Assembly: GCA_031581485.1 (NCBI GenBank)
Contig: JAVLBA010000003.1
Location: 5,673 to 69,672, forward strand
DNA: 64,000 nucleotides
Direction of reading: 5' to 3'
Source of the DNA: Desulfurivibrionaceae bacterium
GTDB taxonomy: Bacteria > Desulfobacterota > Desulfobulbia > Desulfobulbales > SURF-16
The translations under genes were made by a program, and so were the position numbers. Under the pieces are notes generated by a model that worked only from the letters and a program-made list of their open reading frames with translations, ran no database searches and had not been told where the DNA came from. Each line of letters opens with the position of its first letter. Position 1 is the first letter of the stretch. Below are positions 17,374 through 51,789 of this stretch, piece by piece.

Positions 17374-17386
17374 ATAGCGCAGGCAA

Positions 17387-28473: not shown

Positions 28474-28691
28474 TTCATGCCGTTTCTGATTGTAGTTTAT
28501 TAAGCGGGGCGCACCCCTTGGGCTTATTATACCGATTGTCAAGATGACAAAGCAATGTCGGTGGAGAGGGGTTTTACTTTTTTGCGGATCGAACGGGGCG
28601 GGGGAGAGAAGGAATGCCGGAACACTGTTTTGAAACTGCATCGCCTGCCTGACAAGATCGCATCATCGCTCACCTTGATATCAATGAGCAG

Positions 28692-33463: not shown

Positions 33464-33491
33464 TTTCTTCGGGGCGCACAAGGTTGATCTT

Positions 33492-38503: not shown

Positions 38504-38634
38504 GACTGCCTGTGTTCTTATTGAAAAGAGTATGGTAATACCTTGTAAACAGCTTTTTTAAGAGTTTAACTTATTGCTGAAAGGAGTATTCTGGGGCATC
38601 TTTTTTTGGTCTGGAATATCTTGAGTCATATTTT

Positions 38635-39426: not shown

Positions 39427-40190
39427 AACCGGCAATTCGTTTCGTGGATGTGGTAAAGAAATTCGGCGATCAGGTGGTCCTTGATCATGTCAATGTTGAA
39501 TTTCAGAAGGGTAAGACCACGGTCATTGCCGGCGGCAGCGGCCAGGGGAAAAGTGTGGCCCTCAAGCTTATCCTGCGCCTCATAGAGCCGGACAGTGGCC
39601 AGATTTTTGTGGATGGCATTGATATTGGCAGCTTAAACAGAAAAGAACTTGATGAGGTGCGTTCTAAATTCGGCGTCCTTTTTCAAGGTTCGGCCCTGCT
39701 CGATTCAATGACTGTCTGGGAAAATATCGCCCTTCCTCTCCGGGAACGGACGAAAATAAGCAGGGATGCATTGATCAGTCGGGTGGATGGCGCCTTGGCC
39801 CAGTTTGATTTAAGTGGCCATGGTGATAAATTTCCAGCCCAACTTTCCGGGGGTATGAGGAAGAGGGTAGGGCTTGCCCGCGCCACCATGCTCGATCCGG
39901 AAATTGTTCTTTTTGACGAGCCGACCACGGGCCTTGATCCACAGATCACCATGGATATCTACCGCCTTTTTTTCAGGACTCAGCAGCAATACGGCTTTAC
40001 GTCCATCATTGTCAGTCATGATATCCCTAAGGTGTTTAATCTTGCTGACCAGGTAGTGATTTTGGATGAGGGCAAGATGACCCTCTTTGAAAAGCCGGAG
40101 TTTATCCAGTATTCCACAGATCCTATGATTATGAAATTTGTCGAGCAGACCATGGGCGAGGTCTATACAAGTTCTGAAGAACTTAAATGA
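39423..40190 (+). CDS. mlaF: Phospholipid ABC transporter ATP-binding protein MlaF
   Basis: Walker A GGSGQGKS, signature LSGGMRKRVGLARA, Walker B IVLFDEPTTGLDP. ATG at 39423 overlaps the mlaE stop (ATGA). The longer ORF-track start is rejected. Confidence 0.9.
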   Translation: MKPAIRFVDVVKKFGDQVVLDHVNVEFQKGKTTVIAGGSGQGKSVALKLILRLIEPDSGQIFVDGIDIGSLNRKELDEVRSKFGVLFQGSALLDSMTVWENIALPLRERTKISRDALISRVDGALAQFDLSGHGDKFPAQLSGGMRKRVGLARATMLDPEIVLFDEPTTGLDPQITMDIYRLFFRTQQQYGFTSIIVSHDIPKVFNLADQVVILDEGKMTLFEKPEFIQYSTDPMIMKFVEQTMGEVYTSSEELK

Positions 40191-40279
40191 CCTCCCCGGT
40201 TTTCTCCTCTGAAATATCCCAAGAAAAAATGTATCCCTGGGTCAGGATTGCGACCCTTGTCAGGTGCGGGTGTTAGTCC

Positions 40280-40726
40280 ATGAAAAAAACACATTTTGAT
40301 TTCATTGTCGGCCTCTTTTTGTTGGTCGGATTTGGGGCATTCGGCTATATGACCACCCAATATGGGGAATTCTCTCTCTTTGAGTCGGGGAAACATTACG
40401 AGCTTTCTGCTGAATTCCACAATGTGACCGGGCTGAAAGTCGGCGCCAATGTCTCCATGGCCGGCGTGGAGATCGGCAAGGTTTCCGGGATAAGACTCAC
40501 TGAGGATTATATGGCCCATGTTACCCTCTACCTGGAAAAAAAGGTGAAGATTGCTGAAGATGCCATTGCCTCCATAAAGACCCAGGGGATTATTGGCGAT
40601 AAGTTTATCAAGATCAGTCAGGGCGGCTCAGAAGATTTTCTCAAGGATGGTGATTTTCTCTTTGAGACGGAATCCACGATTGATCTGGAAGATCTGATCA
40701 GTCAGTTTGTCTTTGGTAAGGTGTAA
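40280..40726 (+). CDS. mlaD: MCE-domain protein MlaD
   Basis: N-terminal TM anchor (FIVGLFLLVGFGAFGYM) followed by an MCE domain (F.NVTGLKVGANVSMAGVEIGKVSGI). Confidence 0.85.
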   Translation: MKKTHFDFIVGLFLLVGFGAFGYMTTQYGEFSLFESGKHYELSAEFHNVTGLKVGANVSMAGVEIGKVSGIRLTEDYMAHVTLYLEKKVKIAEDAIASIKTQGIIGDKFIKISQGGSEDFLKDGDFLFETESTIDLEDLISQFVFGKV

Positions 40727-40727
40727 G

Positions 40728-41741
40728 GTGGGGATCTCTTTTACTCCGCCGTTAAGGAAAGGGTTGTGGCTCCTCTTGGTCGCCCTGACGTCTCTGCTTG
40801 CCCCTCCCTCTGTTGCTGCCGTGGATCTGGAGGCCCTGCTTGATGACGATTTCGGCGAGAATGAGGAGCGGCTGGTTTTTGATCCCCTGGAGCCGGTGAA
40901 CAGGGTTTTTTTTAGATTCAATGACCGCCTCTATTTCTGGGTTTTGAAGCCCGTGGGCAAGGTCTACACTGCTGTTCTGGCTGATGAGGATGTGCGGGGC
41001 GCTATCAGCGCTGCTTTTCATAATATTCTGGCCCCGGTTCGGGTGGTGAACAACCTGCTGCAGGGCAAGATCAGGCAATCCGGGACTGAGATGGCCCGTT
41101 TCGCCATTAATACCGTTTTGGGTGCCGGTGGCCTTGGGGATCCGGCTGCCGTGGAATTCGGCCTGGCCAAGGCTGACGAGGATCTCGGGCAGACCCTGGG
41201 GTTGTACGGGATGGGCGAAGGTATTTATCTCTGCTGGCCCTTCCTTGGTCCTTCCACGGCCCGGGACACGCTGGGTATGGCGGGTGATTATTTTCTTAAC
41301 CCTGTCAATCATATCTTGGTCAATGAACCGAAAATCCAGGCTGGCCTCACTGCTTTGAAAGTGGAAAATGCGGCCACCTTAAAAGGAAAAGAGTATGAGA
41401 GCCTGGTCCGTGAGGCTTTTGATCCCTATATTTCGATACGGGACATCTATTATCAGCATCGGCGGAGTCTTATCACCGCCACCGTATCTGCAGAGCAGCA
41501 GGGCCCGGGGAGCAAAGGAGATGGGGGACGTCCCCAGGAGCCGTGTCCGGAATTTTCTGGGAATGGCTTGTTCCATAATTTGCTAAAGGCAAGACAATAT
41601 CAACAATGTCTCAATAATATGGGGGCAAAGGCATCGATTCATCGCACGCAAAATATGGGGCGTGCCCTGTACAGGGTTAGAGGGGATGCCCGGTCTGCCT
41701 CAGGACAGCAGTTGGTAATGGTGATGGATGTCGCGGAGTAA
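40728..41741 (+). CDS. mlaA: MlaA/VacJ family lipid-binding outer-membrane protein with a C-terminal extension
   Basis: FDPLEPVNRVFFRFNDRLYFWVLKPVGKVYTAVL and PFLGPSTARD are VacJ signatures. GTG 40728 (RBS AAGGTG) gives a signal peptide. About 90 extra C-terminal residues follow. Confidence 0.8.
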   Translation: MGISFTPPLRKGLWLLLVALTSLLAPPSVAAVDLEALLDDDFGENEERLVFDPLEPVNRVFFRFNDRLYFWVLKPVGKVYTAVLADEDVRGAISAAFHNILAPVRVVNNLLQGKIRQSGTEMARFAINTVLGAGGLGDPAAVEFGLAKADEDLGQTLGLYGMGEGIYLCWPFLGPSTARDTLGMAGDYFLNPVNHILVNEPKIQAGLTALKVENAATLKGKEYESLVREAFDPYISIRDIYYQHRRSLITATVSAEQQGPGSKGDGGRPQEPCPEFSGNGLFHNLLKARQYQQCLNNMGAKASIHRTQNMGRALYRVRGDARSASGQQLVMVMDVAE

Positions 41742-41743
41742 TA

Positions 41744-42391
41744 ATGATGAGATGCAATACAAAGATACGGGGACTGCAGCTCCTCTTTGCCCTTCTTCTG
41801 CTTTGGCAGGGGACAGCGGCCTGGGCCACTGATCCCCAGGCCGCCATGCAGGAAACCGTTGAAAATGTTCTGGAGATCCTCACTGATCCTGCTTTGGCGG
41901 ATGAGGCCCATTGGCAGGAGCGCCGCGAGCGGATCACCCAGGAGGTTGCCAGGCGTTTTAATTTTACCAAAATGGCACAAAGTGCTTTGGCCAGGGCCTG
42001 GCACGACAGGAGCGCGGCTGAAAAGGAGGAGTTTGTCGCTCTTTTTAAGGAGCTCCTGAAGGATGCCTATGTGGACAGGCTGAAGACATACTCTGATGGC
42101 AATTATGAGGTGGTTTTTGACAAGGTCCTGGTCCGGGGCACAAGGGCGGTGGTCAGCTCCATTGTCATCCAGAAGGAGCAGGAAATTTCTGCTGCCTATA
42201 AGATGTACCAGGAGGGCGACGACTGGTTTGTCTATGATGTGGTGGTGGAAGGGGTCAGTCTGGTGAGTAATTACCGCAGTCAGTTTGGCAGCATTATCCA
42301 AAAAGATGGTTATGCGGAATTGGTGCGGCGGCTGGAAAAAAAAATAGCAGAACCGCGAAATGCTGAAAACCTCAATGGGGAGTTGAGTTGA
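41744..42391 (+). CDS. mlaC: Periplasmic phospholipid-binding protein MlaC (Ttg2D-like)
   Basis: Signal peptide, then ...NFTKMAQSALARAWHDRSAAEKEEFVALFKELL..YVD... of the toluene-tolerance Ttg2 family. Confidence 0.8.
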   Translation: MMRCNTKIRGLQLLFALLLLWQGTAAWATDPQAAMQETVENVLEILTDPALADEAHWQERRERITQEVARRFNFTKMAQSALARAWHDRSAAEKEEFVALFKELLKDAYVDRLKTYSDGNYEVVFDKVLVRGTRAVVSSIVIQKEQEISAAYKMYQEGDDWFVYDVVVEGVSLVSNYRSQFGSIIQKDGYAELVRRLEKKIAEPRNAENLNGELS

Positions 42392-42392
42392 T

Positions 42393-42848
42393 ATGGGCTG
42401 TAATCTGGTCAGCGACGAGGCCCTTGCCAGGAGTTTTCCCTATCTCCTGCCCCAGGAGTGCACTGTTTTATGTGGTTTCCTGGAATATAAAAAATGCGCC
42501 AAGGGCGAGATCTTTGTCAATCAGGGTGATCCCGGCGATTCCATGGGTTTTTTGCTGACAGGGAGGCTGGCCATAAAGAAAGAAACCACCTTTCCTGGAA
42601 AGTTCGTCCTGGTGGCTATCCTGGAGGGCGGTTCTCTGGTGGGTGAGATCTCGATGGTGGAGTCAACCCCCCGCACCGCTACGGTGGTGGCCATGGAAGA
42701 GAGCGAGATTCTCATCCTTCCCCACTTGAAGGCCCAAAAACTGCTGGAGGAAAATCCCCAGCTGGGCATGAAGCTGCTGAAGAATATTGTCAGCGTCTTG
42801 GGCACCAGGCTGCAGCGATCTACCGCCAGGCTGGCCAAGTTGCTTTAA
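42393..42848 (+). CDS. Stand-alone cyclic-nucleotide-binding (cNMP) domain protein
   Basis: FVNQGDPGDSMGFLLTGRLAIKKE....GSLVGEISMVESTPRTATVVA fits the cNMP-binding beta-roll with its phosphate-binding cassette. Starts 2 nt after mlaC. Confidence 0.75.
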   Translation: MGCNLVSDEALARSFPYLLPQECTVLCGFLEYKKCAKGEIFVNQGDPGDSMGFLLTGRLAIKKETTFPGKFVLVAILEGGSLVGEISMVESTPRTATVVAMEESEILILPHLKAQKLLEENPQLGMKLLKNIVSVLGTRLQRSTARLAKLL

Positions 42849-42891
42849 GGGCCCCCTTGTCCGAAGGCGCCCCTTGCCTGCCATAAAAAGC

Positions 42892-42920
42892 TTGACATAT
42901 TTGGCGCTTTTTCTTAATTA
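42892..42920 (+). promoter_or_regulatory. Candidate sigma70 promoter for rpmF
   Basis: TTGACA (42892-42897), a 17-nt spacer, then TAATTA (42915-42920), about 130 nt upstream of rpmF. Confidence 0.4.
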
Positions 42921-43051
42921 GGTACCCTTCTCAGGGTTTTTTTGATTCGTTGTCCTGGAGGCGTCGGCACCATCCCGGCTTGAAAAAAGAAATGCAATGG
43001 GCTTAGCGCCTGTTACGTATGTATAGAATATATTGTTACGGAGAAGAGATA

Positions 43052-43240
43052 ATGGCCTTACCTAAAAGAAGAAAATCCTATTCAAAGACCCATATGGGTC
43101 GGTCCCATCACGCCCTTGTTGCTCCCAATGTCGGTGTCTGCACGCATTGTGGGGAGCCTAAAATGCCTCACCGTCTCTGCGGCAGCTGCGGCACCTACAA
43201 GGGGCGGGAAGTTATCTCCCTTGGCGAAGATCTTGCATAG
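43052..43240 (+). CDS. rpmF: 50S ribosomal protein L32
   Basis: MALPKRRKSYSKTHMGRSHHAL....C..CGEPKMPHRLCGSCGTYKGREV. RBS GGAGAAGAG lies upstream. Confidence 0.92.
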   Translation: MALPKRRKSYSKTHMGRSHHALVAPNVGVCTHCGEPKMPHRLCGSCGTYKGREVISLGEDLA

Positions 43241-43268
43241 GTTGTTTGCTCCCCCGCTCTCTTTTTAT

Positions 43269-43305
43269 CCCTGAAGATTGCTTTCGGTCTTCAGGGATTT
43301 TTTTT
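43269..43305 (+). terminator. Rho-independent terminator/attenuator after rpmF
   Basis: Stem CCCTGAAGA (43269-43277) / TCTTCAGGG (43289-43297) followed by a T-run (43299-43305). Confidence 0.8.
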
Positions 43306-43585
43306 CTTGTTTCTGTGCCTTTTTCAGCCAGAAAAAGAGTCTAACCACCTGTTTTGACTTGTGCGGCTCTCTCTTTGGGGGTATTTTCTTCCCTGCATGA
43401 GAACCGGCCCAGGCTTGTCTTTTTCCTAAGGTTCTCTTTGACTTCTTTGTTTCCCTTTGCCCTGGTGATGTGAAACATATAGGCCGTTTGGTCGGTGGAG
43501 TCAGCAGGGTGTGGTTCCTGTGATGATACAGGGCGCCCCTCGATTTGCTTAACCTCTAAAAGTTTTCTCATTTTGGTGAGTTCAC

Positions 43586-44611
43586 GTGCATATTGCTCTT
43601 GATGTCATGGGTAGTGACCGGGGCGCGGAGGAGTTGGTTTCCGGCGCACTTCAGGCAGTACACGAAAGTTCTATCAAAATCACCCTGGTGGGTGATGGGG
43701 AAGCAATCTCTTCTGCTCTTGCCGGACGGCAACCTAATGCCGCTCTTTCTATTTTCCCCACTACCCAGGTGGTGGATATGGGGGACAGCCCCATCGACGC
43801 CATCCGGAAAAAGAAAGATTCCTCAATGGTCCGCGCCTTTGAACTCCTGAAAGACCATAAGGTCGATGCCGTGGTCAGCGCCGGTAATTCCGGGGCAGTC
43901 ATGGCCTCGGCCATCAAATTTCTGGGCCGTCTCCAGCATATCAGCAGACCGGCTATCGCATCTGTGTTCCCTACCTTGAAAGGCCCCGTGGTCATGGCGG
44001 ATGTCGGCGCCAATGTCGACTGTCGTCCCGGGCATCTCTACCAGTTCGGGGTTATGGCCTCTGCCTTCGCCAAGATCATGTTTGGTATCTCGGCACCCAG
44101 GGTCGGCCTGCTCAGCATAGGAGAGGAGGGCGGTAAGGGCAATGCCCTGATCAAGAAAACCCACGAACTGCTCTCAGCAAGTAATCTTAATTATATCGGT
44201 AACGTGGAAGGTGGCGACATCTTTCACGGCGATGTTGATGTCATTGTCTGCGATGGCTTTGTGGGAAATGTCTGCCTCAAGCTCAGTGAAGGGTTGTCCG
44301 AGGCGGTTCTTACCATGCTCCGCGACGAGATCTCCAAGACGTTCAAGGCCAAAATGGGATATCTTCTGGCCAAAGATGCCTTTGGTGCCTTCAGAAAACG
44401 GGTGGATTATGCCGAGTATGGCGGCGCCCCCCTGCTAGGGCTTAACGGCGCCGCCATTATCTGTCACGGCCGCTCCAGTGCCAAGGCCATCAAGAATGCC
44501 CTTCTGGTGGCGGATGAATTGACCGCCAATCGCGTCAATGATCATATCCTTGCTGCCCTGGCCTTGGATGAGGCCGGCCTGGACTCCCTTGATGGGGAGG
44601 AGGGGTCGTGA
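43586..44611 (+). CDS. plsX: Phosphate acyltransferase PlsX
   Basis: MHIALDVMGSDRGAEELVSGA...VVSAGNSGA...VCDGFVGNV. GTG start. Confidence 0.92.
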   Translation: MHIALDVMGSDRGAEELVSGALQAVHESSIKITLVGDGEAISSALAGRQPNAALSIFPTTQVVDMGDSPIDAIRKKKDSSMVRAFELLKDHKVDAVVSAGNSGAVMASAIKFLGRLQHISRPAIASVFPTLKGPVVMADVGANVDCRPGHLYQFGVMASAFAKIMFGISAPRVGLLSIGEEGGKGNALIKKTHELLSASNLNYIGNVEGGDIFHGDVDVIVCDGFVGNVCLKLSEGLSEAVLTMLRDEISKTFKAKMGYLLAKDAFGAFRKRVDYAEYGGAPLLGLNGAAIICHGRSSAKAIKNALLVADELTANRVNDHILAALALDEAGLDSLDGEEGS

Positions 44612-45591
44612 GCTGGCGGGCCTCCATACTGGCCACCGGCTCCCATGTGCCGGCCCGGATCCTCTCCAATGAGGATCTCGAGAAGATGGTGGATACTTCG
44701 GATGAGTGGATTGTCAGCCGGACCGGGATCAAAACCCGCCATATTTCCGGCCCTGGCGAGTATACCTCTGTCCTGGCCAGCCGGGCGGCAACCAATACCC
44801 TGGCGGCTGCCGGGCTGGCGGCCGCTGAGGTGGATATCCTCATTGTTGCCACGGTAAGTGCTGAAATGACAATGCCCTCCTGTGCCTGTCTGGTGCAGAA
44901 GGAACTAGGCGCGATCAATGCCTTTGCCTTTGATATTAATGCCGCTTGTTCCGGTTTTATCTACGGTCTCAGTGTGGCGGAAAAATATATCCTCGCCGAT
45001 CCCCGGCTCAAGGTCATGGTCATCGGCGCGGAGACCTTGTCCACCCGGGTCAACTGGCAGGACCGCAATACCTGTGTCCTTTTCGGCGATGCCGCCGGGG
45101 CCGTGCTCCTGGGCAGCAGTGACCAGGGTGACGGCATTGTTGCTGAGAAACTCTTTTCCGACGGCACTCTCTATAATCTGCTCTATATGGACGGGGCCCA
45201 GAGCCTGAATCCCGACCTGCGCAACGAGGAGTTTGAAGGTTCCTTGATCAAGATGGTGGGCCGGGATGTCTTTAAGTACGCGGTCAATGCCATGGAAAAT
45301 GCCGTACGGCTGGTTTTGGCCCAGGCCGGGGTGGCCATTGAGGAGGTGCGTCTGGTGGTGCCGCATCAGGCCAATATCCGCATCATCAATAAGTTGACCC
45401 AAAAGCTGGGTGTTGATCCTGAAAAAGTCTACATTAATGTCACCAAGTATGGTAATACTTCCGCGGCTACCATCCCCCTGGCCTTGGATGAGGCCAATCG
45501 AGAGGGTCGTCTGCAGTCAGGTGACTATGTAATTCTGTGTGCCTTTGGTGGCGGTTTCACCTGGGGGGCAACATTGATAAAATGGCAGTGA
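44608..45591 (+). CDS. fabH: 3-oxoacyl-ACP synthase III
   Basis: SNEDLEKMVDTSDEWIVSRTGIKTRH, active-site region AFDINAACSGFIYGL, HQANIRII, and GNTSAATIPLAL. Overlaps plsX by 4 nt. Confidence 0.92.
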   Translation: MSWRASILATGSHVPARILSNEDLEKMVDTSDEWIVSRTGIKTRHISGPGEYTSVLASRAATNTLAAAGLAAAEVDILIVATVSAEMTMPSCACLVQKELGAINAFAFDINAACSGFIYGLSVAEKYILADPRLKVMVIGAETLSTRVNWQDRNTCVLFGDAAGAVLLGSSDQGDGIVAEKLFSDGTLYNLLYMDGAQSLNPDLRNEEFEGSLIKMVGRDVFKYAVNAMENAVRLVLAQAGVAIEEVRLVVPHQANIRIINKLTQKLGVDPEKVYINVTKYGNTSAATIPLALDEANREGRLQSGDYVILCAFGGGFTWGATLIKWQ

Positions 45592-45619
45592 GCCTTTTTT
45601 GCATAAGAGGCTTTTTTTA
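45591..45619 (+). terminator. Weak rho-independent terminator after fabH
   Basis: 8-bp stem including one G-U pair (AGCCTTTT / AAGAGGCT), a 6-nt loop, then 7 T. Separates fabH from the acd-etf-fabG block. Confidence 0.45.
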
Positions 45620-45637
45620 TAAATTAAAGAGGACGGG

Positions 45638-46795
45638 GTGGATAGAGTGGATCATTTCCTGACCGAAGATCAGCAGATGATTGTCGATCTGGCAAGACAG
45701 ATCACCGACGAGATGGTGATCCCCAATCGGGCGCGCTATGACGAGACAGAGGAGTATCCCCTGGATATCGTCGAGGCCTTGGCCAAATCCGATTTTTTTG
45801 CTCTTTTTGTCCCAGAGGAGTATGGCGGCTTGGGCGGCAGTTGTTATGATCTGGTCCTGGCTCTGGAGCAGATCGGCCGCGGCTGTGTGGGTATAGCCAC
45901 GGCCTATGCGGCAAGCGCCCTGGGTGCCTATCCTATTATTGTCGGCGGCAGTCATGAGCTGAAATCAAAATATCTGCCCGATATTGCCAGCGGCAAAAAA
46001 AGGGCGGCCTTTGCCCTTACCGAATCAAATGCCGGCAGTGATGCCGGTGGTATTCAGACCACCGCTGTTCTGGATGGCGACGAATGGGTCATCAACGGTA
46101 CCAAGCAATGGATCACCAATGGCGGCCACGCCCATCTCTATACCGTGATTGCCATTACCGACCCCAGCAAGGGTGCCCGCGGCGCCTCCATGTTTGTGGT
46201 GGAGGCGGATGATCCCGGGTTTTCCTGCGGTCCCAAGGAAAAGAAGATGGGTATCCGCTGTTCTGCCACCACGGAACTTATCTTTCGGGATTGTCGTATC
46301 CCCAAGGACCGGATCATCGGTCGTCAAGGCACAGGTTTTATCACCGTGATGAAGACCTTGGACAGGTCACGGCCCGGCATTGCCAGCCTGGGGGTCGGTC
46401 TGGCCCAAGCCGCCCTTGATGAGTCGGTGACCTACGCCAAGAGCCGTTATCAGTTTGGGAAGCCCATTATCTCTTTTCAGGCGGTCCAGCATATGTTGGC
46501 GGACATGGCCATTGAGACAGAGGCTGCCCGGGCCCTGGTCTATGTCAGTGCCCGTCATATTGACGCCCATCCCAAGGATATGTCCAAGGCCTCGGCCATG
46601 TGCAAGGTCAAGGCCACGGATGTGGCCATGAAGGTAGCTGTAGATGCGGTTCAGGTCTTTGCCGGCTATGGCTTCATGCGTGAGTATCCGGTGGAGAAGA
46701 TGATGCGGGACGCCAAGATTCTGCAGATCTATGAAGGCACAAATCAGATCCAGCGTAATGTTGTGGGTCAGGAACTCAATAAAGAGTATACCTGA
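45638..46795 (+). CDS. Acyl-CoA dehydrogenase (butyryl-CoA dehydrogenase / CarC-like)
   Basis: LTEDQQMIVDLARQ..., FALTESNAGSDAGG, and C-terminal GYGFMREYPVEKMMRDAKILQIYEGTNQIQR carrying the catalytic Glu. Confidence 0.88.
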   Translation: MDRVDHFLTEDQQMIVDLARQITDEMVIPNRARYDETEEYPLDIVEALAKSDFFALFVPEEYGGLGGSCYDLVLALEQIGRGCVGIATAYAASALGAYPIIVGGSHELKSKYLPDIASGKKRAAFALTESNAGSDAGGIQTTAVLDGDEWVINGTKQWITNGGHAHLYTVIAITDPSKGARGASMFVVEADDPGFSCGPKEKKMGIRCSATTELIFRDCRIPKDRIIGRQGTGFITVMKTLDRSRPGIASLGVGLAQAALDESVTYAKSRYQFGKPIISFQAVQHMLADMAIETEAARALVYVSARHIDAHPKDMSKASAMCKVKATDVAMKVAVDAVQVFAGYGFMREYPVEKMMRDAKILQIYEGTNQIQRNVVGQELNKEYT

Positions 46796-46872
46796 GACAT
46801 GATCCCCAGGATGCCGTGGCGCTGCTCTTTGTCTGCCCCCTTCATCCCTCAATCAATTTCCTGCGATGAGTT

Positions 46873-47661
46873 ATGAGAATTGTTGTCTGCATAAAACAAG
46901 TTCCCGATGCCAAGGATGTCCGTCTTGACCCCGTGACCAACACCCTGTCCCGTGAAGGCGTCAAGTCGGTGATCAATCCCTATGACCGGCATGCCATGGA
47001 AGAGGGTGTGCGTCTCAAGGAGCAGTATGGGGGTACGGTCACCGTGATTTCCATGGGACCTCCCCAGGCCAAGGCCATTTTAAGCGAGGCCATTTCCTGC
47101 GGTGTTGATGACGCCTTTTTGGTTTCTGACCGCGCCTTTGCCGGTTCCGACACCCTGGCCACCACCTACACCCTGGCCCAGGCCATCAAGAAGAGCGGGG
47201 CCGTGGATCTGGTCCTCTGCGGCAAACAGGCCACAGATGGCGATACCGCCCAGGTGGGTCCCGGTCTGGCGGCCCGGCTTGACATGCCCTACGTCACCTG
47301 TGTCAAGAAGATCAGCGCTGTCGAAGATCAGCTGATGCGCGTCGAACGGATGATGGATGACGGCTATGACGAGGTCGAGATTGATCTGCCGGCCCTGCTC
47401 ACTGTGGTTAAAGAGATCAATGTCCCTCGTTTTCCTTCCCTGCGAGGTCTGCGCAAGGCCAAGGCCTTTGATATCCCCAGCTATAGTGCTGCTGATATTG
47501 ATGCCGACCCTGACCAGCTGGGCCTGGGCGGTTCGCCCACCTGGGTGGTGAAGGTCTTTCCCCCCGAATGTAAAGGGGAGCGGAGCATGATTGAGGGAAG
47601 CCTGGAAGAGATTGCCGATAAACTGGCAGGGATTTTATCTGACAGCGCCTACGGCGCTTAA
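46873..47661 (+). CDS. etfB: Electron transfer flavoprotein beta subunit (bifurcating-type motif)
   Basis: MRIVVCIKQVPDAKDVRLDP...NPYDRHAMEEGVRLKE and CGKQATDGDTAQVGPGLAARL. DGDTAQVGP is, to my recollection, typical of FAD-binding bifurcating EtfB rather than AMP-binding ones. Confidence 0.88.
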   Translation: MRIVVCIKQVPDAKDVRLDPVTNTLSREGVKSVINPYDRHAMEEGVRLKEQYGGTVTVISMGPPQAKAILSEAISCGVDDAFLVSDRAFAGSDTLATTYTLAQAIKKSGAVDLVLCGKQATDGDTAQVGPGLAARLDMPYVTCVKKISAVEDQLMRVERMMDDGYDEVEIDLPALLTVVKEINVPRFPSLRGLRKAKAFDIPSYSAADIDADPDQLGLGGSPTWVVKVFPPECKGERSMIEGSLEEIADKLAGILSDSAYGA

Positions 47662-47679
47662 TCTAACGGTTTTTGTAAT

Positions 47680-48864
47680 ATGCTACTTATTGATACCGAA
47701 GCCTGTATTGGCTGTGGCCTCTGTGAGGACAATTGTCCTTTTGATGCGATCCATGTTGTGGATGGCAAGGCAGTGGTTAATGATTCCTGCACCCTGTGCG
47801 GGACCTGTGTTGACCATTGTGAGGTGGCGGCCCTTGCCATTGAGCGCGATGAGAGCGAAGCCATAGATCTGGCGGCCTGGTCCGGCATCTGGGTCTTTGC
47901 CGAGTATCGGGGCGGTAAGGTCGCCCAGGTCACCAACGAACTCCTGGGGGTCGGCACCGAACTGGCGGCCCAGCGTGGTGTCAAGCTGGCTGCTGTTCTC
48001 TTGTGCGATCAGAGTGGCGATGTTCCCCAGCAGCTCATTGCCGCGGGTGCTGATATCGTCTACACCGTGGAAGATCCTGCCCTGGCCGATTTTTCCGATG
48101 ATGCCTATGGCAATGCCTTGGAGGATCTGGCCAGAAAATATAAGCCTGAGGTTATCCTGGCCGGTGCCACCGCCATTGGCCGCTCCTTTATCCCCCGAGT
48201 GGCCACCTCACTTGTTACCGGCTTGACGGCAGACTGCACCAATCTTGCCATTGGCGATGACGGCCATCTCCACCAGACCCGGCCTGCCTTTGGCGGTAAT
48301 ATCATGGCAACCATCATGTGCCCCAAGCACCGCCCGCAGATGGCAACGGTGCGGCCCATGGTGATGAAGGCCAATACTCCTGACCCCGGCCGCCAGGGCG
48401 AGATTATTGTCGAAACCATTGCCCCGGTCCGGCTGCAGTCGCGGGCCCGGGTGGTGCGCACGGTTTTCAGCGAAGGTGAGCAGCTCAACCTCAGTGAGGC
48501 GGATGTGGTTGTGGCCGGAGGCCGTGGTCTTGATACCCGTGAGGGTTTCAAGTTGGTTGAAGAGCTGGCAACGCTTCTTGACGGCGCCGTGGGTGCCAGC
48601 CGGGCGGCGGTGGACAGCGGCTGGGTCGGCTATCCTCATCAGGTGGGCCAGACCGGCAAGACCGTGGCTTCCAAACTCTATGTGGCTTGTGGTATTTCCG
48701 GCGCCATTCAGCATGTGATCGGTATGAAATCTTCGGAGATCATTGTTGCCATCAACCGTGATCCCAAGGCCACCATCTTTGATGTGGCCGATTACGGAGT
48801 GGTTGGTGATCTCTTTGAGATCCTGCCCCGGGTCATAGAAAAAATCAAAGAGCGCCGCTCTTAA
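47680..48864 (+). CDS. etfA: Electron transfer flavoprotein alpha subunit with an N-terminal 2x[4Fe-4S] ferredoxin domain (CarE/LctC-like)
   Basis: N-terminal CIGCGLCEDNCP and CTLCGTCVDHC cluster motifs. C-terminal LYVACGISGAIQHVIGMKSSEIIVAINRDPKATIF is the EtfA FAD site. Confidence 0.88.
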   Translation: MLLIDTEACIGCGLCEDNCPFDAIHVVDGKAVVNDSCTLCGTCVDHCEVAALAIERDESEAIDLAAWSGIWVFAEYRGGKVAQVTNELLGVGTELAAQRGVKLAAVLLCDQSGDVPQQLIAAGADIVYTVEDPALADFSDDAYGNALEDLARKYKPEVILAGATAIGRSFIPRVATSLVTGLTADCTNLAIGDDGHLHQTRPAFGGNIMATIMCPKHRPQMATVRPMVMKANTPDPGRQGEIIVETIAPVRLQSRARVVRTVFSEGEQLNLSEADVVVAGGRGLDTREGFKLVEELATLLDGAVGASRAAVDSGWVGYPHQVGQTGKTVASKLYVACGISGAIQHVIGMKSSEIIVAINRDPKATIFDVADYGVVGDLFEILPRVIEKIKERRS

Positions 48865-48878
48865 CCCTGGTGACGATT

Positions 48879-49625
48879 ATGGATTTAACAGGAAAGGTTG
48901 CCGTTGTTACCGGCGGCAGTCGTGGAATCGGCAAGGCGGTATGCCTGCGCCTGGGCGCCCTGGGTGCCACCGTGGTTATCAATTATGTGAGCCGCCCCGA
49001 TGCTGCCCAGGAAACAGCGGCTGAGGTGGAGAAGGCAGGGGGCAAGGCTGCCCTGGCCCAGTTCAATGTGGCTGACAGTGCGGCCGTTGATGCGGCCTTC
49101 AAGCAGATCCTGGAGACCCATGGCCGGATTGATGTGCTGGTCAATAATGCCGGCATTACCCGTGACGGTCTCTTCATGAAGATGAAGGAGGCGGATTGGG
49201 ATCTGGTCCTTGATACCAATCTCAAGGGGGCCTTCAACTGTATCAAGGCCGTGAACAGGCCCATGATGAAACAGCGCTCCGGCGCGATCATTTCCATCAC
49301 CTCGGTGATCGGTTTTGCCGGTAATGCCGGCCAGGCCAATTACTCGGCAGCCAAGGCCGGGCTCATCGGTCTTACCCGTTCCCTGGCCAAGGAGCTCGCC
49401 TCCCGCAATATCAGGGTGAACGGGGTGGCCCCCGGCTATATCGATACCGATATGACCAAGGACCTGCCCGAGTCGGTGAAGGAGATCATTTTAAGTGAAA
49501 TCCCCCTGCGGTCCATGGGGGCGGCTGATGATGTGGCTGCTGCAGTGGCCTTTCTGGCCTCTGAGGATGCCCGTTATATCACCGGCCAGTTTATCCATGT
49601 CAACGGCGGCATGTACATGGCGTAG
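48879..49625 (+). CDS. fabG: 3-oxoacyl-ACP reductase
   Basis: LTGKVAVVTGGSRGIGKA, NNAGITRD, and the YSAAKAG catalytic triad region. Starts 14 nt after etfA with no terminator between them. Confidence 0.92.
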   Translation: MDLTGKVAVVTGGSRGIGKAVCLRLGALGATVVINYVSRPDAAQETAAEVEKAGGKAALAQFNVADSAAVDAAFKQILETHGRIDVLVNNAGITRDGLFMKMKEADWDLVLDTNLKGAFNCIKAVNRPMMKQRSGAIISITSVIGFAGNAGQANYSAAKAGLIGLTRSLAKELASRNIRVNGVAPGYIDTDMTKDLPESVKEIILSEIPLRSMGAADDVAAAVAFLASEDARYITGQFIHVNGGMYMA

Positions 49626-49725: not shown

Positions 49726-49953
49726 ATGTCTGTTGAAGAGAAACTTATTGATATTATTGCAGAACAATTGAGTGTTGATAAGGCGAAAGTTGTTCCTTCC
49801 GCCTCGTTTGTCGATGATCTCGGCGCCGATTCCCTGGACCTGGTTGAATTGATTATGGCCATGGAAGAGGCCTTTGATACCGAGATTCCTGATGAGGTTG
49901 CCGAAAAGATCACCACGGTTAAAGCTGCTATTGAGCATATCGAGAAGTTATAA
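49726..49953 (+). CDS. acpP: Acyl carrier protein
   Basis: 75 aa with the [18 protein letters not shown] phosphopantetheine-attachment Ser motif. RBS AAGGAGA. Confidence 0.95.
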
Positions 49954-50117
49954 GAGACCCGCGGCAACGCCCCTGGTTGGGCCGTATGTCGGTGGATTCC
50001 TTGTTACGCCTTATCCGTGCCATTACGATGGCATGGTAAGGCGTTTTCTGCCGTTTTAGCCGGGAAGATTGTTTCTGAACCAGTTGTGCACGTTTTTGTG
50101 ATTTGAAGAGGGATATT

Positions 50118-51359
50118 ATGGCTCGAAGAGTTGTGGTCACTGGTGTTGGTCTGGTTACGCCCCTAGGCACGGGAGTTGCCAAAACCTGGGAAGGACTTTG
50201 CGCTGGCAAGTCGGGTGTGGGGCCGATTACCCGTTTTGACGCCACTGATTTTGCCGTGCAGATTGCGGCAGAGGTCAAGGACTTTCAGGTGGAAGAGTTC
50301 ATGGATGCCAAAGAGGCCAAGCATCTCGACTACTTTGTGCAATATGCTCTCGGCGCCGCCCATATGGCCCTGGCTGATTCTGGTTTTGTGGTCACGGAAG
50401 AGAATGCCACCCGGGTCGGCTCCATTGTGGGCTGCGGTCTGGGCGGCCTGCCCACCATTGAAAAATATCACCAGGTCTACCTGGACAAGGGGCCCAGAAG
50501 GATTACCCCCTTTTTTATTCCCATGGTTATTCCCAACATGGGTGCCGGGCAGATTTCCATCTTTCACAAGGTCAAGGGCCCGAACATCTCCCCCACCACG
50601 GCCTGTGCCGCAGGCACCCACGCTGTGGGCGAGGCCTACCGGCTGATTGCCGACGGTTATTGCGATGCGGCCTTCACCGGCGGCAGCGAGTCGGTGATCT
50701 GCCCTCTGGCTGTGGGCGGTTTCAACGCCATGAAGGCCCTGTCCAAGCGCAATGATGATCCGCAGGCGGCCTCCCGTCCCTTTGACAAGGAGCGCAACGG
50801 TTTTGTGATTGCCGAGGGCGGCGGTATCCTTATTCTTGAGGAGCTGGAGCATGCCCGGGCCAGGGGCGCCAGGATCTATGCGGAGATGGTGGGGTACGGT
50901 CTTTCCGGTGACGGCTACCATATTGCTGCTCCCCCTGAAGACGGCAACGGCGCCATGCGCTGCATGCAGATGGCCCTGGATGACGCCAAGATGAATCCGG
51001 AAGATATTGATTATATCAATGCCCATGGTACCTCAACCCCTCTGAATGATGTGGTGGAGACCAGGGCCATCAAGGGTGTTTTCGGCGATCATGCCCGCAA
51101 GCTTGCCATCAGCTCCACAAAATCGATGACAGGCCACATGCTGGGCGGCGCCGGGGGTATTGAGGCGGTGTTTACCGCCCTTTCCCTCCATCATCAGATT
51201 GCGCCACCCACTGCTAATCTGGAAAATCCTGATCCCGAATGTGATCTTGATTATATCCCGGGCAGTGCCAGGAACATGAAGATGCAGGCGGCCATGTCCA
51301 ACTCCTTTGGTTTTGGCGGCACCAATGCGGTGATTATCATGAAACGTTTTGAGGGCTGA
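50118..51359 (+). CDS. fabF: 3-oxoacyl-ACP synthase II
   Basis: MARRVVVTGVGLVTPLG, active-site PTTACAAGTH, NAHGTSTP, and SNSFGFGGTNA. Confidence 0.93.
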   Translation: MARRVVVTGVGLVTPLGTGVAKTWEGLCAGKSGVGPITRFDATDFAVQIAAEVKDFQVEEFMDAKEAKHLDYFVQYALGAAHMALADSGFVVTEENATRVGSIVGCGLGGLPTIEKYHQVYLDKGPRRITPFFIPMVIPNMGAGQISIFHKVKGPNISPTTACAAGTHAVGEAYRLIADGYCDAAFTGGSESVICPLAVGGFNAMKALSKRNDDPQAASRPFDKERNGFVIAEGGGILILEELEHARARGARIYAEMVGYGLSGDGYHIAAPPEDGNGAMRCMQMALDDAKMNPEDIDYINAHGTSTPLNDVVETRAIKGVFGDHARKLAISSTKSMTGHMLGGAGGIEAVFTALSLHHQIAPPTANLENPDPECDLDYIPGSARNMKMQAAMSNSFGFGGTNAVIIMKRFEG

Positions 51360-51363
51360 GCAG

Positions 51364-51789
51364 ATGAAAATTGCATTAGGGTGTGACCATGGCGGCCTGG
51401 GGCTCAAAAAGGAAATCGCTATACTGCTGCAGGAGATGGGCCAGGAAGTGGTGGATGTGGGCACGGATTCTCCCGATTCCGTCCCGTACCCCCGTTTTGC
51501 CGAGGCGGTCTGTGCGGAAATAATTGCCGGCCGCTGTGCGCAGGGCATCCTGATCTGCGGCACCGGGATCGGCATGTCCATGGCAGCCAACAGGCACCAG
51601 CAGATTCGCGCCGCCCTCTGCCATGAGCTTTTTACGGCCCGGCTGAGCCGCGAGCATAATGATGCCAATGTCCTGTGCCTGGGCGCCCGGGTTATCGGCT
51701 CGGGGCTGGCCCTGGAGATGGTCAAGACCTGGCTTGCAACCGAGTTTGACGGCGGCCGTCATTCCGATAGAATCGCCATGTTTTCTTGA
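51364..51789 (+). CDS. rpiB: Ribose-5-phosphate isomerase B
   Basis: MKIALGCDHGGLGLKKEI...GILICGTGIGMSMAANR...ARLSREHNDANVLCLGARV. Confidence 0.9.
   Translation: MKIALGCDHGGLGLKKEIAILLQEMGQEVVDVGTDSPDSVPYPRFAEAVCAEIIAGRCAQGILICGTGIGMSMAANRHQQIRAALCHELFTARLSREHNDANVLCLGARVIGSGLALEMVKTWLATEFDGGRHSDRIAMFS

What the first reader, a model, noticed from the sequence alone, without database searches (positions are those of the whole stretch)
45591..49625. CarCDE-like acyl-CoA dehydrogenase plus bifurcating-type EtfBA inserted into the FAS II operon in the fabD slot
Seen in sequence:
- The order is rpmF-plsX-fabH, a weak hairpin terminator (45591-45619), then acd (45638-46795), etfB (46873-47661) and etfA (47680-48864).
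- fabG follows etfA after only 14 nt with no terminator, and acpP and fabF come next.
- EtfA carries an extra N-terminal ferredoxin domain (CIGCGLCEDNCP and CTLCGTCVDHC).
- EtfB carries DGDTAQVGP.

Established knowledge:
- The canonical bacterial order is plsX-fabH-fabD-fabG-acpP-fabF.
- An ACAD-EtfB-EtfA gene order with a ferredoxin domain on EtfA is the layout of caffeyl-CoA reductase CarCDE.
- Bcd-EtfAB complexes are flavin-based electron-bifurcating enoyl-CoA reductases.

Inference:
- An enoyl-thioester reductase complex wired to NADH and ferredoxin appears co-transcribed with the FAS II core.
- No fabD and no fabI/K/L/V is present in this window.
- It could be the missing enoyl reductase of fatty-acid synthesis, acting on ACP or CoA thioesters, or a link between beta-oxidation-type chemistry and FAS.
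- Either role would be an undescribed arrangement.
Basis: partly seen in the sequence, partly recalled or inferred. Interest (0 to 1): 0.68.

Follow-up and report, generated by a model that had tools for sequence, protein, structure and literature searches.

The report
Bifurcating-type acyl-CoA dehydrogenase/Etf inside fatty-acid-synthesis operon
A flavoprotein trio that normally reduces enoyl-CoA while also making reduced ferredoxin sits inside the core fatty-acid-synthesis operon of this sulfate-reducer relative and of anaerobes from at least six phyla, so it may be an undescribed, energy-conserving enoyl reductase of lipid synthesis, though this is unproven.

Summary
The window encodes rpmF | plsX-fabH-acd-etfB-etfA-fabG-acpP-fabF-rpiB on one strand with short gaps, and every FAS protein passes its curated family cutoff. 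EtfB carries the bifurcating-ETF signature DGDTAQ. EtfA has an N-terminal 2x[4Fe-4S] ferredoxin domain that aligns with CarE over its full length.

The arrangement is not a one-off. In one-genome-per-species contigs, 34 of 67 loci whose ACAD is at least 54% identical lie in FAS II clusters (17 of 27 with full flanks). None of 15 more distant ACADs do. At least five different architectures occur, across Desulfobulbales, other Desulfobacterota, Nitrospirota, Margulisiibacteriota, Elusimicrobiota, Omnitrophota and Dehalococcoidia. No beta-oxidation or butyrate-pathway neighbours recur. The ACAD is as conserved as AcpP.

"In the fabD slot" is incidental, because outside Desulfobulbales fabD follows etfA directly.

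The best reading is an NADH- and ferredoxin-coupled enoyl-thioester reductase, probably an enoyl-ACP reductase, serving FAS II. "The missing reductase" is not shown. A paper reports a FabI homolog elsewhere in the genome of Desulfotalea psychrophila (Desulfobulbales), one locus also has a FabK/FabX-like gene, and no whole-genome census could be run. I found no description of this arrangement in the searchable literature.

The parts
43055..43240 (+). rpmF (ribosomal protein L32), the usual upstream neighbour of the housekeeping FAS II cluster
   Evidence: ORF. tblastn orthologs sit upstream of plsX in relatives. Pfam Ribosomal_L32p in relatives.
43267..43298 (+). Strong intrinsic-terminator-like hairpin after rpmF. 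It separates rpmF from plsX in this genus.
   Evidence: 14-bp stem plus T-run. Free energy -20.3 kcal/mol, z = -6.17, 0 of 200 shuffles fold as well.
43586..44611 (+). plsX (phosphate acyltransferase)
   Evidence: TIGR00182 at 355.8 bits against a cutoff of 243.4. Pfam FA_synthesis.
44608..45591 (+). [quoted passage not shown]
   Evidence: NF006829 at 426 bits against a cutoff of 249. Pfam ACP_syn_III and ACP_syn_III_C.
45590..45620 (+). Weak hairpin plus U-run overlapping the fabH stop codon; possible partial terminator or attenuator
   Evidence: -10.5 kcal/mol, z = -2.35. Conserved with compensatory changes in L087, absent in other genera.
45638..46795 (+). acd: acyl-CoA-dehydrogenase-family flavoprotein with the catalytic Glu in IYEGT. 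It belongs to a distinct FAS-associated ACAD clade. The start may be 45647.
   Evidence: Three ACAD Pfam domains. No NCBIfam equivalog reaches its cutoff; the best is AcrC at 413.5 bits against 640. PDB matches: 3PFD 388, C. difficile Bcd 372, CarC 304 bits. Small residues at MCAD Q95/E99 and no Bcd-type insertion. 74% mean identity across Desulfobulbales, equal to AcpP.
46873..47661 (+). etfB: bifurcating-type Etf small subunit with the DGDTAQ signature (site of the bifurcating FAD and NADH oxidation)
   Evidence: Pfam ETF. Best PDB matches CarD 242, LctB 232 and Afe EtfB 224 bits, against 85-105 bits for canonical ETFs. DGDTAQ is the Bf-ETF signature according to PMC8958531.
47680..48864 (+). 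etfA: Etf large subunit with an N-terminal 2x[4Fe-4S] ferredoxin domain (residues 2-51, nt 47683-47832), CarE type
   Evidence: Pfam Fer4, ETF and ETF_alpha. Full-length alignment to CarE 6FAH_A at 395 bits, with all 8 Cys aligned. Bf-site A184 and R201 align with Afe EtfA A129 and R146 (PMC8958531).
48870..49625 (+). fabG (3-oxoacyl-ACP reductase), 5-14 nt after etfA with no terminator between them
   Evidence: TIGR01830 at 342.6 bits against a cutoff of 297.75. Fold of 48840-48900 gives z = -0.31. etfA and fabG overlap by 4 nt in L081 and L083.
49726..49953 (+). acpP (acyl carrier protein)
   Evidence: NF002149 at 108.7 bits against a cutoff of 106; TIGR00517 at 104.7 against 70.45.
50103..51359 (+). 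[quoted passage not shown]
   Evidence: TIGR03150 at 651.4 bits against a cutoff of 493.75.
51349..51789 (+). rpiB, conserved downstream neighbour; overlaps fabF by 11 nt
   Evidence: Pfam LacAB_rpiB. Conserved position in relatives.

Best explanation
The three genes encode a Bcd/CarCDE-type complex made of an ACAD (delta-FAD) and a bifurcating EtfBA with a fused two-cluster ferredoxin domain. The complex is an integral, co-transcribed part of the housekeeping FAS II operon.

Proposed mechanism. NADH reduces the bifurcating FAD in EtfB. One electron goes through the EtfA alpha-FAD to the ACAD FAD and on to a trans-2-enoyl thioester. The other electron goes through the two [4Fe-4S] clusters of the EtfA N-terminal domain to ferredoxin or flavodoxin. 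Two rounds give: 2 NADH + Fd(ox) + enoyl-X -> 2 NAD+ + Fd(red) + acyl-X.

The most likely substrate is trans-2-enoyl-ACP. On that reading the complex is an ACAD-based enoyl-ACP reductase, possibly an isozyme working beside FabI, that recovers the large free-energy drop of each elongation cycle as reduced ferredoxin.

Shown: gene content, operon-like packing, bifurcating-type sequence signatures, and cross-phylum association with FAS genes.
Inferred: the direction of the reaction, bifurcation itself, and ACP rather than CoA as the carrier.
For: 1. The cluster is the canonical housekeeping FAS II cluster: rpmF lies upstream and all FAS proteins exceed their curated cutoffs.
2. The genes are tightly packed and no terminator separates etfA from fabG. 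In Desulfosediminicola and Desulfofustis the fabH-acd gap is 13 nt and etfA overlaps fabG by 4 nt.
3. 34 of 67 loci whose ACAD is at least 54% identical are FAS-linked (17 of 27 with 5-kb flanks on both sides), against 0 of 15 below 54%.
4. At least five architectures occur: between fabH and fabG; between fabH and fabD; directly after plsX or rpmF; after fabF(-rnc); and in a plsC...fabD-fabG-acpP cluster. They span at least six phyla, which points to repeated recruitment and not to inherited synteny alone.
5. Unbiased clustering of neighbouring ORFs finds only Etf and FAS families recurring. No crotonase, Hbd or thiolase family recurs. Unlinked copies sit among housekeeping or unrelated genes.
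6. The only chemical steps of the elongation cycle missing from the cluster are the dehydratase and the enoyl reductase, and ACAD chemistry is exactly alpha,beta-(de)hydrogenation of thioesters.
7. All 30 adjacent EtfBs carry DGDT[A/G]Q, and 28 of 29 EtfAs carry two CxxCxxCxxxC motifs. The best PDB matches are all bifurcating ETFs.
8. The ACAD is as conserved as AcpP (74.4%) and more conserved than FabF, FabG, FabH or PlsX.
9. The pocket-floor positions equivalent to MCAD Q95 and E99 are A/G/S and A, and the Bcd-type insertion is absent. This fits longer acyl chains. The link to chain length rests on my memory of the VLCAD Gly/Gly precedent.
10. ACAD-superfamily enzymes that act on carrier-protein thioesters exist, for example prolyl-ACP/PCP dehydrogenases 4IRN and 6AF6 and MbtN.
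Against: - PMC2649909 reports a FabI homolog in an unrelated cluster of Desulfotalea psychrophila, a member of Desulfobulbales. A classical reductase may therefore coexist with the module.
- The Margulisiibacteriota locus L027 carries an NMO-family FabK/FabX-like gene in the same cluster.
- FAS-linked copies are not monophyletic and are interspersed with unlinked ones.
- The protein remains about as close to genuine CoA-dependent ACADs (372-388 bits) as those are to each other. No sequence feature tested here distinguishes ACP from CoA specificity.
- Four FAS-linked loci have acd without an adjacent etfBA.
- There are no expression or biochemical data.
Confidence: 0.5

Rival explanations
1. 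CoA-level enzyme feeding FAS. The complex is a Bcd-like enoyl-CoA reductase that makes saturated short-chain acyl-CoA (butyryl-, propionyl- or similar), which FabH uses as a primer. It never touches ACP.
For: acd lies directly downstream of fabH in many loci. The best NCBIfam matches of all three subunits are the acryloyl-CoA reductase AcrCBA models, and the ACAD resembles CoA-dependent Bcd/FadE enzymes.
Against: All AcrCBA scores fall far below cutoff (413 against 640, 230 against 475, 342 against 600). No crotonase, Hbd, thiolase or CoA-transferase genes recur nearby. In several phyla acd sits after fabF or after plsX or rpmF, not next to fabH. The family lacks the Bcd-type insertion and has small pocket-floor residues.
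Confidence: 0.15
2. Backtracking dehydrogenase/isomerase for anaerobic unsaturated-fatty-acid synthesis, analogous to FabX. The ACAD would oxidise a medium-chain acyl-ACP to trans-2-enoyl-ACP and isomerise it to cis-3, with Etf removing the electrons.
For: It would explain coexistence with FabI and with a FabK-like gene in L027. FabX sets a precedent for running the enoyl-reductase step backwards on ACP substrates (PMC8626469). From general knowledge, ACADs can shift double bonds through their catalytic Glu.
Against: The partner Etf is of the bifurcating type with NADH and ferredoxin modules. Running it in reverse is strongly endergonic, based on the established thermodynamics of the Bcd-Etf reaction. 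FabX uses O2 as its acceptor, and these organisms are strict anaerobes. No isomerase feature was identified.
Confidence: 0.12
3. An ordinary catabolic or fermentative Bcd/ACAD-Etf for energy metabolism, whose position in the FAS operon has no functional meaning.
For: Public annotation calls the relatives 'butyryl-CoA dehydrogenase' or 'acyl-CoA dehydrogenase'. A Margulisbacteria study read the same genes as a putative Bcd/EtfAB (PMC6349859). About half of the family members are not FAS-linked.
Against: FAS linkage arose in at least five architectures across at least six phyla. By my estimate, chance would place under 1% of genes that close to the FAS cluster. There is never a beta-oxidation or butyrate context. 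Conservation equals that of AcpP. etfA and fabG overlap translationally.
Confidence: 0.08

Closest known systems
Caffeyl-CoA reductase CarCDE of Acetobacterium woodii (PDB 6FAH)
   Same: The gene order is ACAD-EtfB-EtfA. EtfA has an N-terminal 2x[4Fe-4S] ferredoxin domain with all 8 Cys aligned over the full length (395 bits). EtfB's best PDB match is CarD (242 bits), and it carries DGDTAQ.
   Different: The ACAD is not a CarC ortholog: CarC scores 304 bits and ranks 17th, behind Bcd/FadE-type ACADs. There is no carA/carB context. The neighbours are FAS II genes.
Electron-bifurcating butyryl-CoA dehydrogenase/EtfAB (Clostridioides difficile 5OL2, Acidaminococcus fermentans 4L1F/4KPU)
   Same: An ACAD with its catalytic Glu in YEGT paired with a bifurcating EtfAB. 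Sequence similarity is high (372 and 340 bits for the ACAD, 275-318 bits for EtfA).
   Different: Bcd's EtfA has no ferredoxin domain. This ACAD family lacks the one-residue insertion of true Bcds in the pocket-floor helix and has Ala/Gly/Ser and Ala at MCAD positions 95 and 99. It is never next to crt, hbd or thl. It is embedded in FAS II.
Known enoyl-ACP reductases FabI/FabL (SDR), FabK (NMO/FMN) and FabV
   Same: The proposed reaction is the same: reduction of trans-2-enoyl thioester in the FAS II cycle. Its position between fabH and fabD matches the slot FabK occupies in streptococcal and clostridial fab clusters (from my own knowledge).
   Different: The fold is unrelated (ACAD plus Etf). 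It would be a three-subunit, multi-flavin, Fe-S system that couples to ferredoxin, not a single NAD(P)H-dependent protein. Activity on ACP is untested.
Helicobacter pylori FabX (NMO-family acyl-ACP dehydrogenase/isomerase with a [4Fe-4S] cluster)
   Same: A flavin plus Fe-S enzyme acting at the enoyl/acyl-ACP redox step within FAS II (PMC8626469).
   Different: Different fold, O2-dependent, and it works in the oxidative direction. The present module has NADH- and ferredoxin-coupled bifurcating hardware.
Clostridium propionicum acryloyl-CoA reductase AcrABC (NCBIfam NF042970-NF042972)
   Same: It gives the best NCBIfam hit for all three subunits. It is an ACAD plus Etf complex that works in the reductive direction.
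   Different: All three scores fall far below the equivalog cutoffs (413.5 against 640, 230.2 against 475, 342 against 600), and the genomic context differs.

Membership tests
Bifurcating electron-transferring flavoprotein (Bf-ETF, group 2) | EtfB 'zipper' signature DGDTAQ (canonical ETFs have DDD(S)NQ) | tested here: met
   The window's EtfB has DGDTAQ. The signature and its frequencies come from PMC8958531. All 30 EtfBs next to this ACAD family have DGDT[A/G]Q.
Bifurcating electron-transferring flavoprotein (Bf-ETF, group 2) | Closer in sequence to experimentally bifurcating ETFs than to canonical ETFs | tested here: met
   EtfA scores 275-395 bits against CarE, Afe EtfA, 7KOE, LctC and C. 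difficile EtfA, and 119-172 bits against canonical ETFs. EtfB scores 215-242 bits against 85-105 bits.
Bifurcating electron-transferring flavoprotein (Bf-ETF, group 2) | EtfA Arg and Ala contacting the bifurcating FAD (Afe R146, A129) | tested here: met
   In the alignment to 4KPU_A, window R201 and A184 align with R146 and A129. The residues are named in PMC8958531. This Arg is also conserved in canonical ETFs, so the feature is necessary but not discriminating.
Bifurcating electron-transferring flavoprotein (Bf-ETF, group 2) | NADH-dependent ferredoxin reduction coupled to reduction of the high-potential acceptor | not testable with these tools
   Requires enzymology.
Caffeyl-CoA reductase CarCDE | EtfA (CarE) with an N-terminal two-[4Fe-4S] ferredoxin domain | tested here: met
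   Pfam Fer4 at residues 2-51. All 8 Cys align with CarE.
Caffeyl-CoA reductase CarCDE | ACAD subunit orthologous to CarC | tested here: not met
   CarC 6FAH_C scores 304 bits and ranks 17th. 3PFD scores 388 and C. difficile Bcd 372.
Caffeyl-CoA reductase CarCDE | car operon context (CoA transferase or ligase for phenylacrylates) | tested here: not met
   The neighbours are plsX, fabH, fabG, acpP and fabF. No such genes recur in the 80 loci.
Butyryl-CoA dehydrogenase (Bcd)-EtfAB | ACAD fold with the catalytic Glu in the YEG(T/S) motif | tested here: met
   Three ACAD domains. IYEGT aligns with the catalytic Glu of Bcd and with MCAD E376.
Butyryl-CoA dehydrogenase (Bcd)-EtfAB | Bcd-type pocket-floor helix (SAHTSLG, with a one-residue insertion relative to MCAD) | tested here: not met
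   The window and the whole family have ...AA-S/NALG... without the insertion. C. difficile Bcd, A. fermentans Bcd, L072 and L077 have it. That this insertion defines Bcd is my inference from these few sequences.
Butyryl-CoA dehydrogenase (Bcd)-EtfAB | Genomic association with crotonase, 3-hydroxybutyryl-CoA dehydrogenase and thiolase | tested here: not met
   No such family recurs in the 80 loci. Pfam scans of the neighbours of unlinked copies found none.
Enoyl-ACP reductases (FabI/FabL, FabK, FabV) | Homology to the SDR (FabI/L), NMO (FabK) or FabV families | tested here: not met
   The protein belongs to the ACAD family.
Enoyl-ACP reductases (FabI/FabL, FabK, FabV) | Reduces trans-2-enoyl-ACP in FAS II | not testable with these tools
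   Only genomic context speaks for it.
Acyl-carrier-protein-dependent ACADs (MbtN, RedW/PigA, AnaB) | Score above the curated family cutoffs | tested here: not met
   MbtN 74.2 bits against 700, RedW 248 against 650, PigA 228 against 500. PDB 4IRN scores 183 bits.
Acryloyl-CoA reductase AcrABC | Scores above the NCBIfam equivalog cutoffs for all three subunits | tested here: not met
   413.5 against 640, 230.2 against 475 and 342 against 600.

The most novel reading that the evidence does not exclude
This ACAD/EtfBA module would be a new, flavin-based electron-bifurcating class of enoyl-ACP reductase. It would be unrelated to FabI/L, FabK and FabV and widespread in strict anaerobes of at least six phyla. 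Every FAS II elongation cycle would then oxidise two NADH and return one reduced ferredoxin, making membrane-lipid synthesis an energy-conserving, ferredoxin-generating process.
Probability: 0.35. Interest if true: 0.9.

Novelty: new variant of a known kind. Interest (0 to 1): 0.72.

Why it matters
Enoyl-ACP reductase is the pace-setting step of bacterial fatty-acid synthesis and a major antibiotic target. Only a handful of enzyme families are known to carry it out, all of them single NAD(P)H-dependent proteins.

A ferredoxin-coupled ACAD/Etf reductase would add an unrelated class. It would also extend flavin-based electron bifurcation from catabolism into core anabolism. And it would change how redox and energy budgets, and lipid hydrogen-isotope signatures, are modelled for sulfate reducers, Nitrospirota, Elusimicrobia, Dehalococcoidia and candidate phyla.

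If the substrate turns out to be a CoA ester, or the role is in unsaturated-fatty-acid synthesis, the finding still identifies a conserved and unrecognised component of FAS II operons in anaerobes. Current annotation mislabels it as 'butyryl-CoA dehydrogenase'.

Tried and rejected
- Exact-sequence look-up of the window's ACAD found no record.
None found a paper linking an ACAD/Etf to FAS II. Garcia Costas 2017 and the cable-bacteria genome paper are not held. The Rattray 2009 paper has no supplements held.
- A whole-genome census for FabI/K/L/V in acd-carrying genomes could not be done.
- I rejected 'the module replaces fabD', because fabD sits directly after etfA in ten non-Desulfobulbales loci.
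- I rejected 'FAS-linked copies form one clade'. The NJ tree shows linked and unlinked copies interspersed.
- I rejected 'the unlinked Clostridia/Bacillota copies are ordinary butyrate operons'. Their neighbours are sporulation, tRNA-synthetase, G6PD and glycosidase genes.
- I looked for ACP-versus-CoA determinants. Family-specific conserved basic residues were found, but the tools return no coordinates, so I could not place them in three dimensions. They remain a lead.
- Rfam and tRNA scans of the window found nothing.
- I did not run structure prediction or fold search, because an ACAD or ETF fold would not separate the hypotheses.

Full report
**Observation.** On the + strand, window positions 43.0-51.8 kb carry this gene string:
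- rpmF (43055-43240)
- a strong terminator (43267-43298)
- plsX (43586-44611)
- fabH (44608-45591)
- a weak hairpin with a U-run (45590-45620)
- an acyl-CoA-dehydrogenase-family gene, acd (45638-46795)
- etfB (46873-47661)
- etfA (47680-48864)
- fabG (48870-49625)
- acpP (49726-49953)
- fabF (50103-51359)
- rpiB

. Pfam and NCBIfam confirm every assignment. PlsX, FabH, FabG, AcpP and FabF all pass their curated cutoffs, so this is the housekeeping FAS II cluster and not a secondary-metabolite look-alike.

The etfA-fabG gap is 5 or 14 nt depending on the fabG start, and nothing terminator-like folds there. The fabH-acd hairpin is weak (-10.5 kcal/mol, z = -2.35). It is kept, with compensatory base changes, in the nearest relative. 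It is missing in other genera, where fabH and acd are only 13 nt apart.

tblastn probes found no fabD and no FabI-, FabK- or FabV-like gene in the 64 kb window. The FabK probe proved usable because it found a verified NMO gene in L027. The FabV probe stays unvalidated.

**What the three proteins are.**
- EtfA aligns over its whole length, ferredoxin domain and all eight cysteines included, with CarE of the caffeyl-CoA reductase complex (6FAH_A, 395 bits). The other top matches are also experimentally bifurcating ETFs, while canonical ETFs score 119-172 bits.
- EtfB likewise matches CarD, LctB and the Acidaminococcus and Clostridioides EtfB (215-242 bits) far better than canonical ETFs (85-105 bits). 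It carries DGDTAQ, which PMC8958531 describes as a conserved signature of bifurcating ETFs; canonical ETFs have DDD(S)NQ there.
- The EtfA Ala and Arg that contact the bifurcating FAD (Afe A129 and R146) are conserved as A184 and R201.
- The ACAD keeps the catalytic Glu (IYEGT) but is not a CarC ortholog. It scores 388 bits against a mycobacterial ACAD (3PFD), 372 against C. difficile Bcd, 340 against A. fermentans Bcd and 304 against CarC. No NCBIfam equivalog reaches its cutoff. The best hits for all three subunits are the acryloyl-CoA reductase models, far below threshold.
- In an alignment anchored on human MCAD, the whole family has small residues at the pocket-floor positions Q95 and E99 (A/G/S and A). 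It also lacks the one-residue insertion found in true Bcds.

**Is the arrangement conserved?** I used the single scan of one-genome-per-species contigs with the ACAD as query. It returned 80 loci, which I mapped with tblastn using every protein of the window's string.
- All Desulfobulbales loci have the same string: 13 from the scan, plus the cultured Desulfosediminicola flagellatus and Desulfofustis glycolicus and a 93%-identical MAG. In the two cultured species etfA overlaps fabG by 4 nt.
- The association reaches far beyond that order:
  - Nitrospirota and a Margulisiibacteriota MAG have rpmF-plsX-fabH-acd-etfB-etfA-fabD-fabG-acpP-fabF.
  - Other Desulfobacterota have acd directly after plsX or rpmF, with or without etfBA.
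  - An Endomicrobium MAG and several unclassified MAGs have plsX-fabH-fabD-fabG-acpP-fabF(-rnc)-acd-etfB-etfA.
  - An Omnitrophota MAG has acpP-fabF-acd.
  - A Dehalococcoidia chromosome has plsC-x-acd-x-yceD-fabD-fabG-...-acpP.
- Of 67 loci whose ACAD is at least 54% identical, 34 have two or more FAS genes on the same strand within 6 kb (17 of the 27 with at least 5 kb on both sides). None of the 15 more distant ACADs do.
- By my estimate a random gene would lie that close to the FAS cluster in under 1% of genomes.
- Unbiased clustering of all ORFs in the loci shows that the only families recurring next to this ACAD are EtfB (30 loci), EtfA (29), FabG (27), FabF (27), YceD (24), FabH (23) and PlsX (20). 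No crotonase, 3-hydroxyacyl-CoA dehydrogenase or thiolase family recurs.
- Members that are not FAS-linked sit among housekeeping or unrelated genes, never in a beta-oxidation or butyrate operon. By sequence inspection these neighbours look like HPRT, QueD, TldD, RluD, ProC, RNase III and NusB. Pfam confirmed sporulation, tRNA-synthetase, G6PD and glycosidase genes.
- All 30 adjacent EtfBs carry DGDT[A/G]Q, and 28 of 29 EtfAs carry the two-cluster ferredoxin domain.
- Within Desulfobulbales the ACAD is as conserved as AcpP (74.4% mean identity). It is more conserved than FabF (69%), FabG (63%), EtfB (64%), EtfA (59%), PlsX (58%) and FabH (58%).

'In the fabD slot' describes only Desulfobulbales. 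An authentic E. coli FabD probe finds fabD directly after etfA, or elsewhere in the cluster, in ten loci from other lineages. It finds none in the window or in any Desulfobulbales locus. The module was therefore added beside fabD, and fabD later moved elsewhere in Desulfobulbales. The module is 'CarCDE-like' in its Etf half only.

**Mechanism (inferred).** I draw on the structurally characterised Bcd-EtfAB and CarCDE complexes, whose mechanism is established knowledge.
1. NADH reduces the bifurcating FAD bound at the EtfB/EtfA interface.
2. One electron passes through the EtfA alpha-FAD to the ACAD FAD and then to a trans-2-enoyl thioester.
3. The other, low-potential electron leaves through the two [4Fe-4S] clusters of the EtfA N-terminal domain to ferredoxin or flavodoxin.
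4. Two turnovers reduce one double bond and one ferredoxin at the cost of two NADH.

The gene sits inside the FAS II operon. The only cycle activities not encoded in that operon are the dehydratase and the enoyl reductase. The most economical substrate is therefore trans-2-enoyl-ACP. ACAD-superfamily enzymes that accept carrier-protein thioesters are known (4IRN and 6AF6; MbtN), so the idea is chemically reasonable. The small pocket-floor residues fit long acyl chains, but this rests on my memory of the VLCAD precedent and is only suggestive. Several basic residues are conserved in the family and absent from CoA-dependent references (window R181, K239, R306, K313, K317, K382). They could form an ACP-docking patch, but I could not place them in space.

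**Evidence against, and rivals.**
- Rattray et al. [quoted passage not shown] Their homology criterion was loose. I also could not confirm that this species has the acd cluster, although every Desulfobulbales locus examined does.
- The Margulisiibacteriota locus L027 carries an NMO-family gene between acpP and fabF. It scores about equally against H. pylori FabX (143 bits) and FabK structures (127-137 bits), and falls below the FabK cutoff (179.7 against 453).
- The module may therefore be a second reductase isozyme, as in the FabI+FabK, FabI+FabL and FabI+FabV pairs known from other bacteria (general knowledge). Or it may serve another FAS-linked role.
- Rivals: (a) a CoA-level reductase that supplies FabH primers; (b) a FabX-like backtracking acyl-ACP dehydrogenase/isomerase for anaerobic unsaturated-fatty-acid synthesis; (c) an unrelated catabolic Bcd.
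- Rival (c) fits the context data poorly.
- Rival (b) conflicts with the bifurcating hardware and the thermodynamics.
- Rival (a) lacks any supporting neighbour genes, and does not explain loci where acd sits after fabF.
- FAS-linked copies are not monophyletic in a simple NJ tree. This fits a single family function with variable gene placement but does not prove it.

**Novelty.** Ten full-text searches found nothing that links an ACAD/Etf to FAS II or to enoyl-ACP reduction. The only mention of these genes I found is in a Margulisbacteria study, which read them as a putative Bcd/EtfAB and judged bifurcation unlikely (PMC6349859). The Margulisiibacteriota locus in my set (L027) carries both DGDTAQ and the ferredoxin domain. 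Public annotations call the protein 'butyryl-CoA dehydrogenase' or 'acyl-CoA dehydrogenase family protein'. The components are known kinds, but their conserved integration into FAS II is apparently undescribed, so I class this as a new variant of a known kind. If enoyl-ACP reduction with bifurcation were shown, it would be a new class of enoyl-ACP reductase.

**Verdict.**
The functional link to FAS II is strong (about 0.8). The specific role as an enoyl-ACP or enoyl-thioester reductase of FAS is the best single explanation (about 0.5). 'The missing reductase' is unproven and, for at least one relative, doubtful.
- Interest is 0.72.

Noticed in passing
window 42848-43586: yceD (DUF177), which precedes rpmF in 28 related loci, is absent from the whole window. 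rpmF stands alone between a promoter-like region and a strong terminator (43267-43298, -20.3 kcal/mol, z = -6.2). About 290 nt of spacer precede plsX. The closest relative L087 has the same layout, while other Desulfobulbales have yceD-rpmF-plsX contiguous.
   Followed up: partly
window 45590-45620; L087 about 9950-9985: The weak fabH-acd hairpin with its U-run is conserved with compensatory stem changes (GCC/GGC to ATC/GAT) in the 93%-identical relative. It is absent in other genera. It may be a genus-specific partial terminator or attenuator that sets the plsX-fabH to acd...fabF expression ratio.
   Followed up: partly
L027 15197-16171: The Margulisiibacteriota FAS cluster carries, besides acd-etfBA, an NMO-family gene between acpP and fabF. 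It is about as similar to H. pylori FabX (7E1Q, 143 bits) as to FabK structures (127-137 bits), and it falls below the FabK family cutoff (179.7 against 453).
   Followed up: partly
window 2000-20000: A low-GC block (41-49%, against 55-61% elsewhere) that may be an island. It holds a photolyase-like gene (3560-4969), a PPDK_N/PEP-utiliser protein (4923-7127), an amine-oxidase-like flavoprotein plus DUF1365 plus cyclopropane-fatty-acyl-phospholipid synthase (11513-14815), and an HD-domain protein (17387-18889).
   Followed up: partly
window 20950-25003 (- strand): An MFS/Atg22-like transporter is followed by a 908-aa fusion of an AMP-binding domain, a weak ACP-like stretch (about 23042-23197) and a PlsC-type acyltransferase. 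The pair resembles the LplT/Aas lysophospholipid-recycling system.
   Followed up: no
window 38600-42850; L081, L083, L087: An MlaE/F/D/A/C-like lipid-transport operon and a cNMP-binding protein lie directly upstream of the rpmF/FAS string. This is conserved in all Desulfobulbales loci that had Pfam-annotated neighbours.
   Followed up: no
L014 11165-14126: In one Nitrospirota MAG, about 3 kb carrying four unannotated ORFs is inserted between acd and etfB inside the FAS cluster.
   Followed up: no
L020, L029, L042, L044: Four Thermodesulfobacteriota-type MAGs have acd inside the FAS cluster (fabH or plsX, then acd, then (fabD-)fabG-acpP-fabF) with no adjacent etfBA. The Etf partner must be encoded elsewhere, or is not needed there.
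   Followed up: no
window ACAD residues R181, K239, R306, K313, K317, K382: These basic residues are conserved in 90-100% of the family and absent from MCAD, two Bcds and 3PFD. They fall at MCAD positions 192, 250, 317, about 323, 327 and 392. They may form a docking patch for ACP or Etf, but their three-dimensional position was not checked.
   Followed up: partly
window 18840-20600 (- strand) and 33306-36113 (+ strand): Two large ORFs (586 and 935 aa) give only weak HEAT-repeat matches. ORFs at 27259-28641 and 25419-27128 have no Pfam match at all.
   Followed up: no
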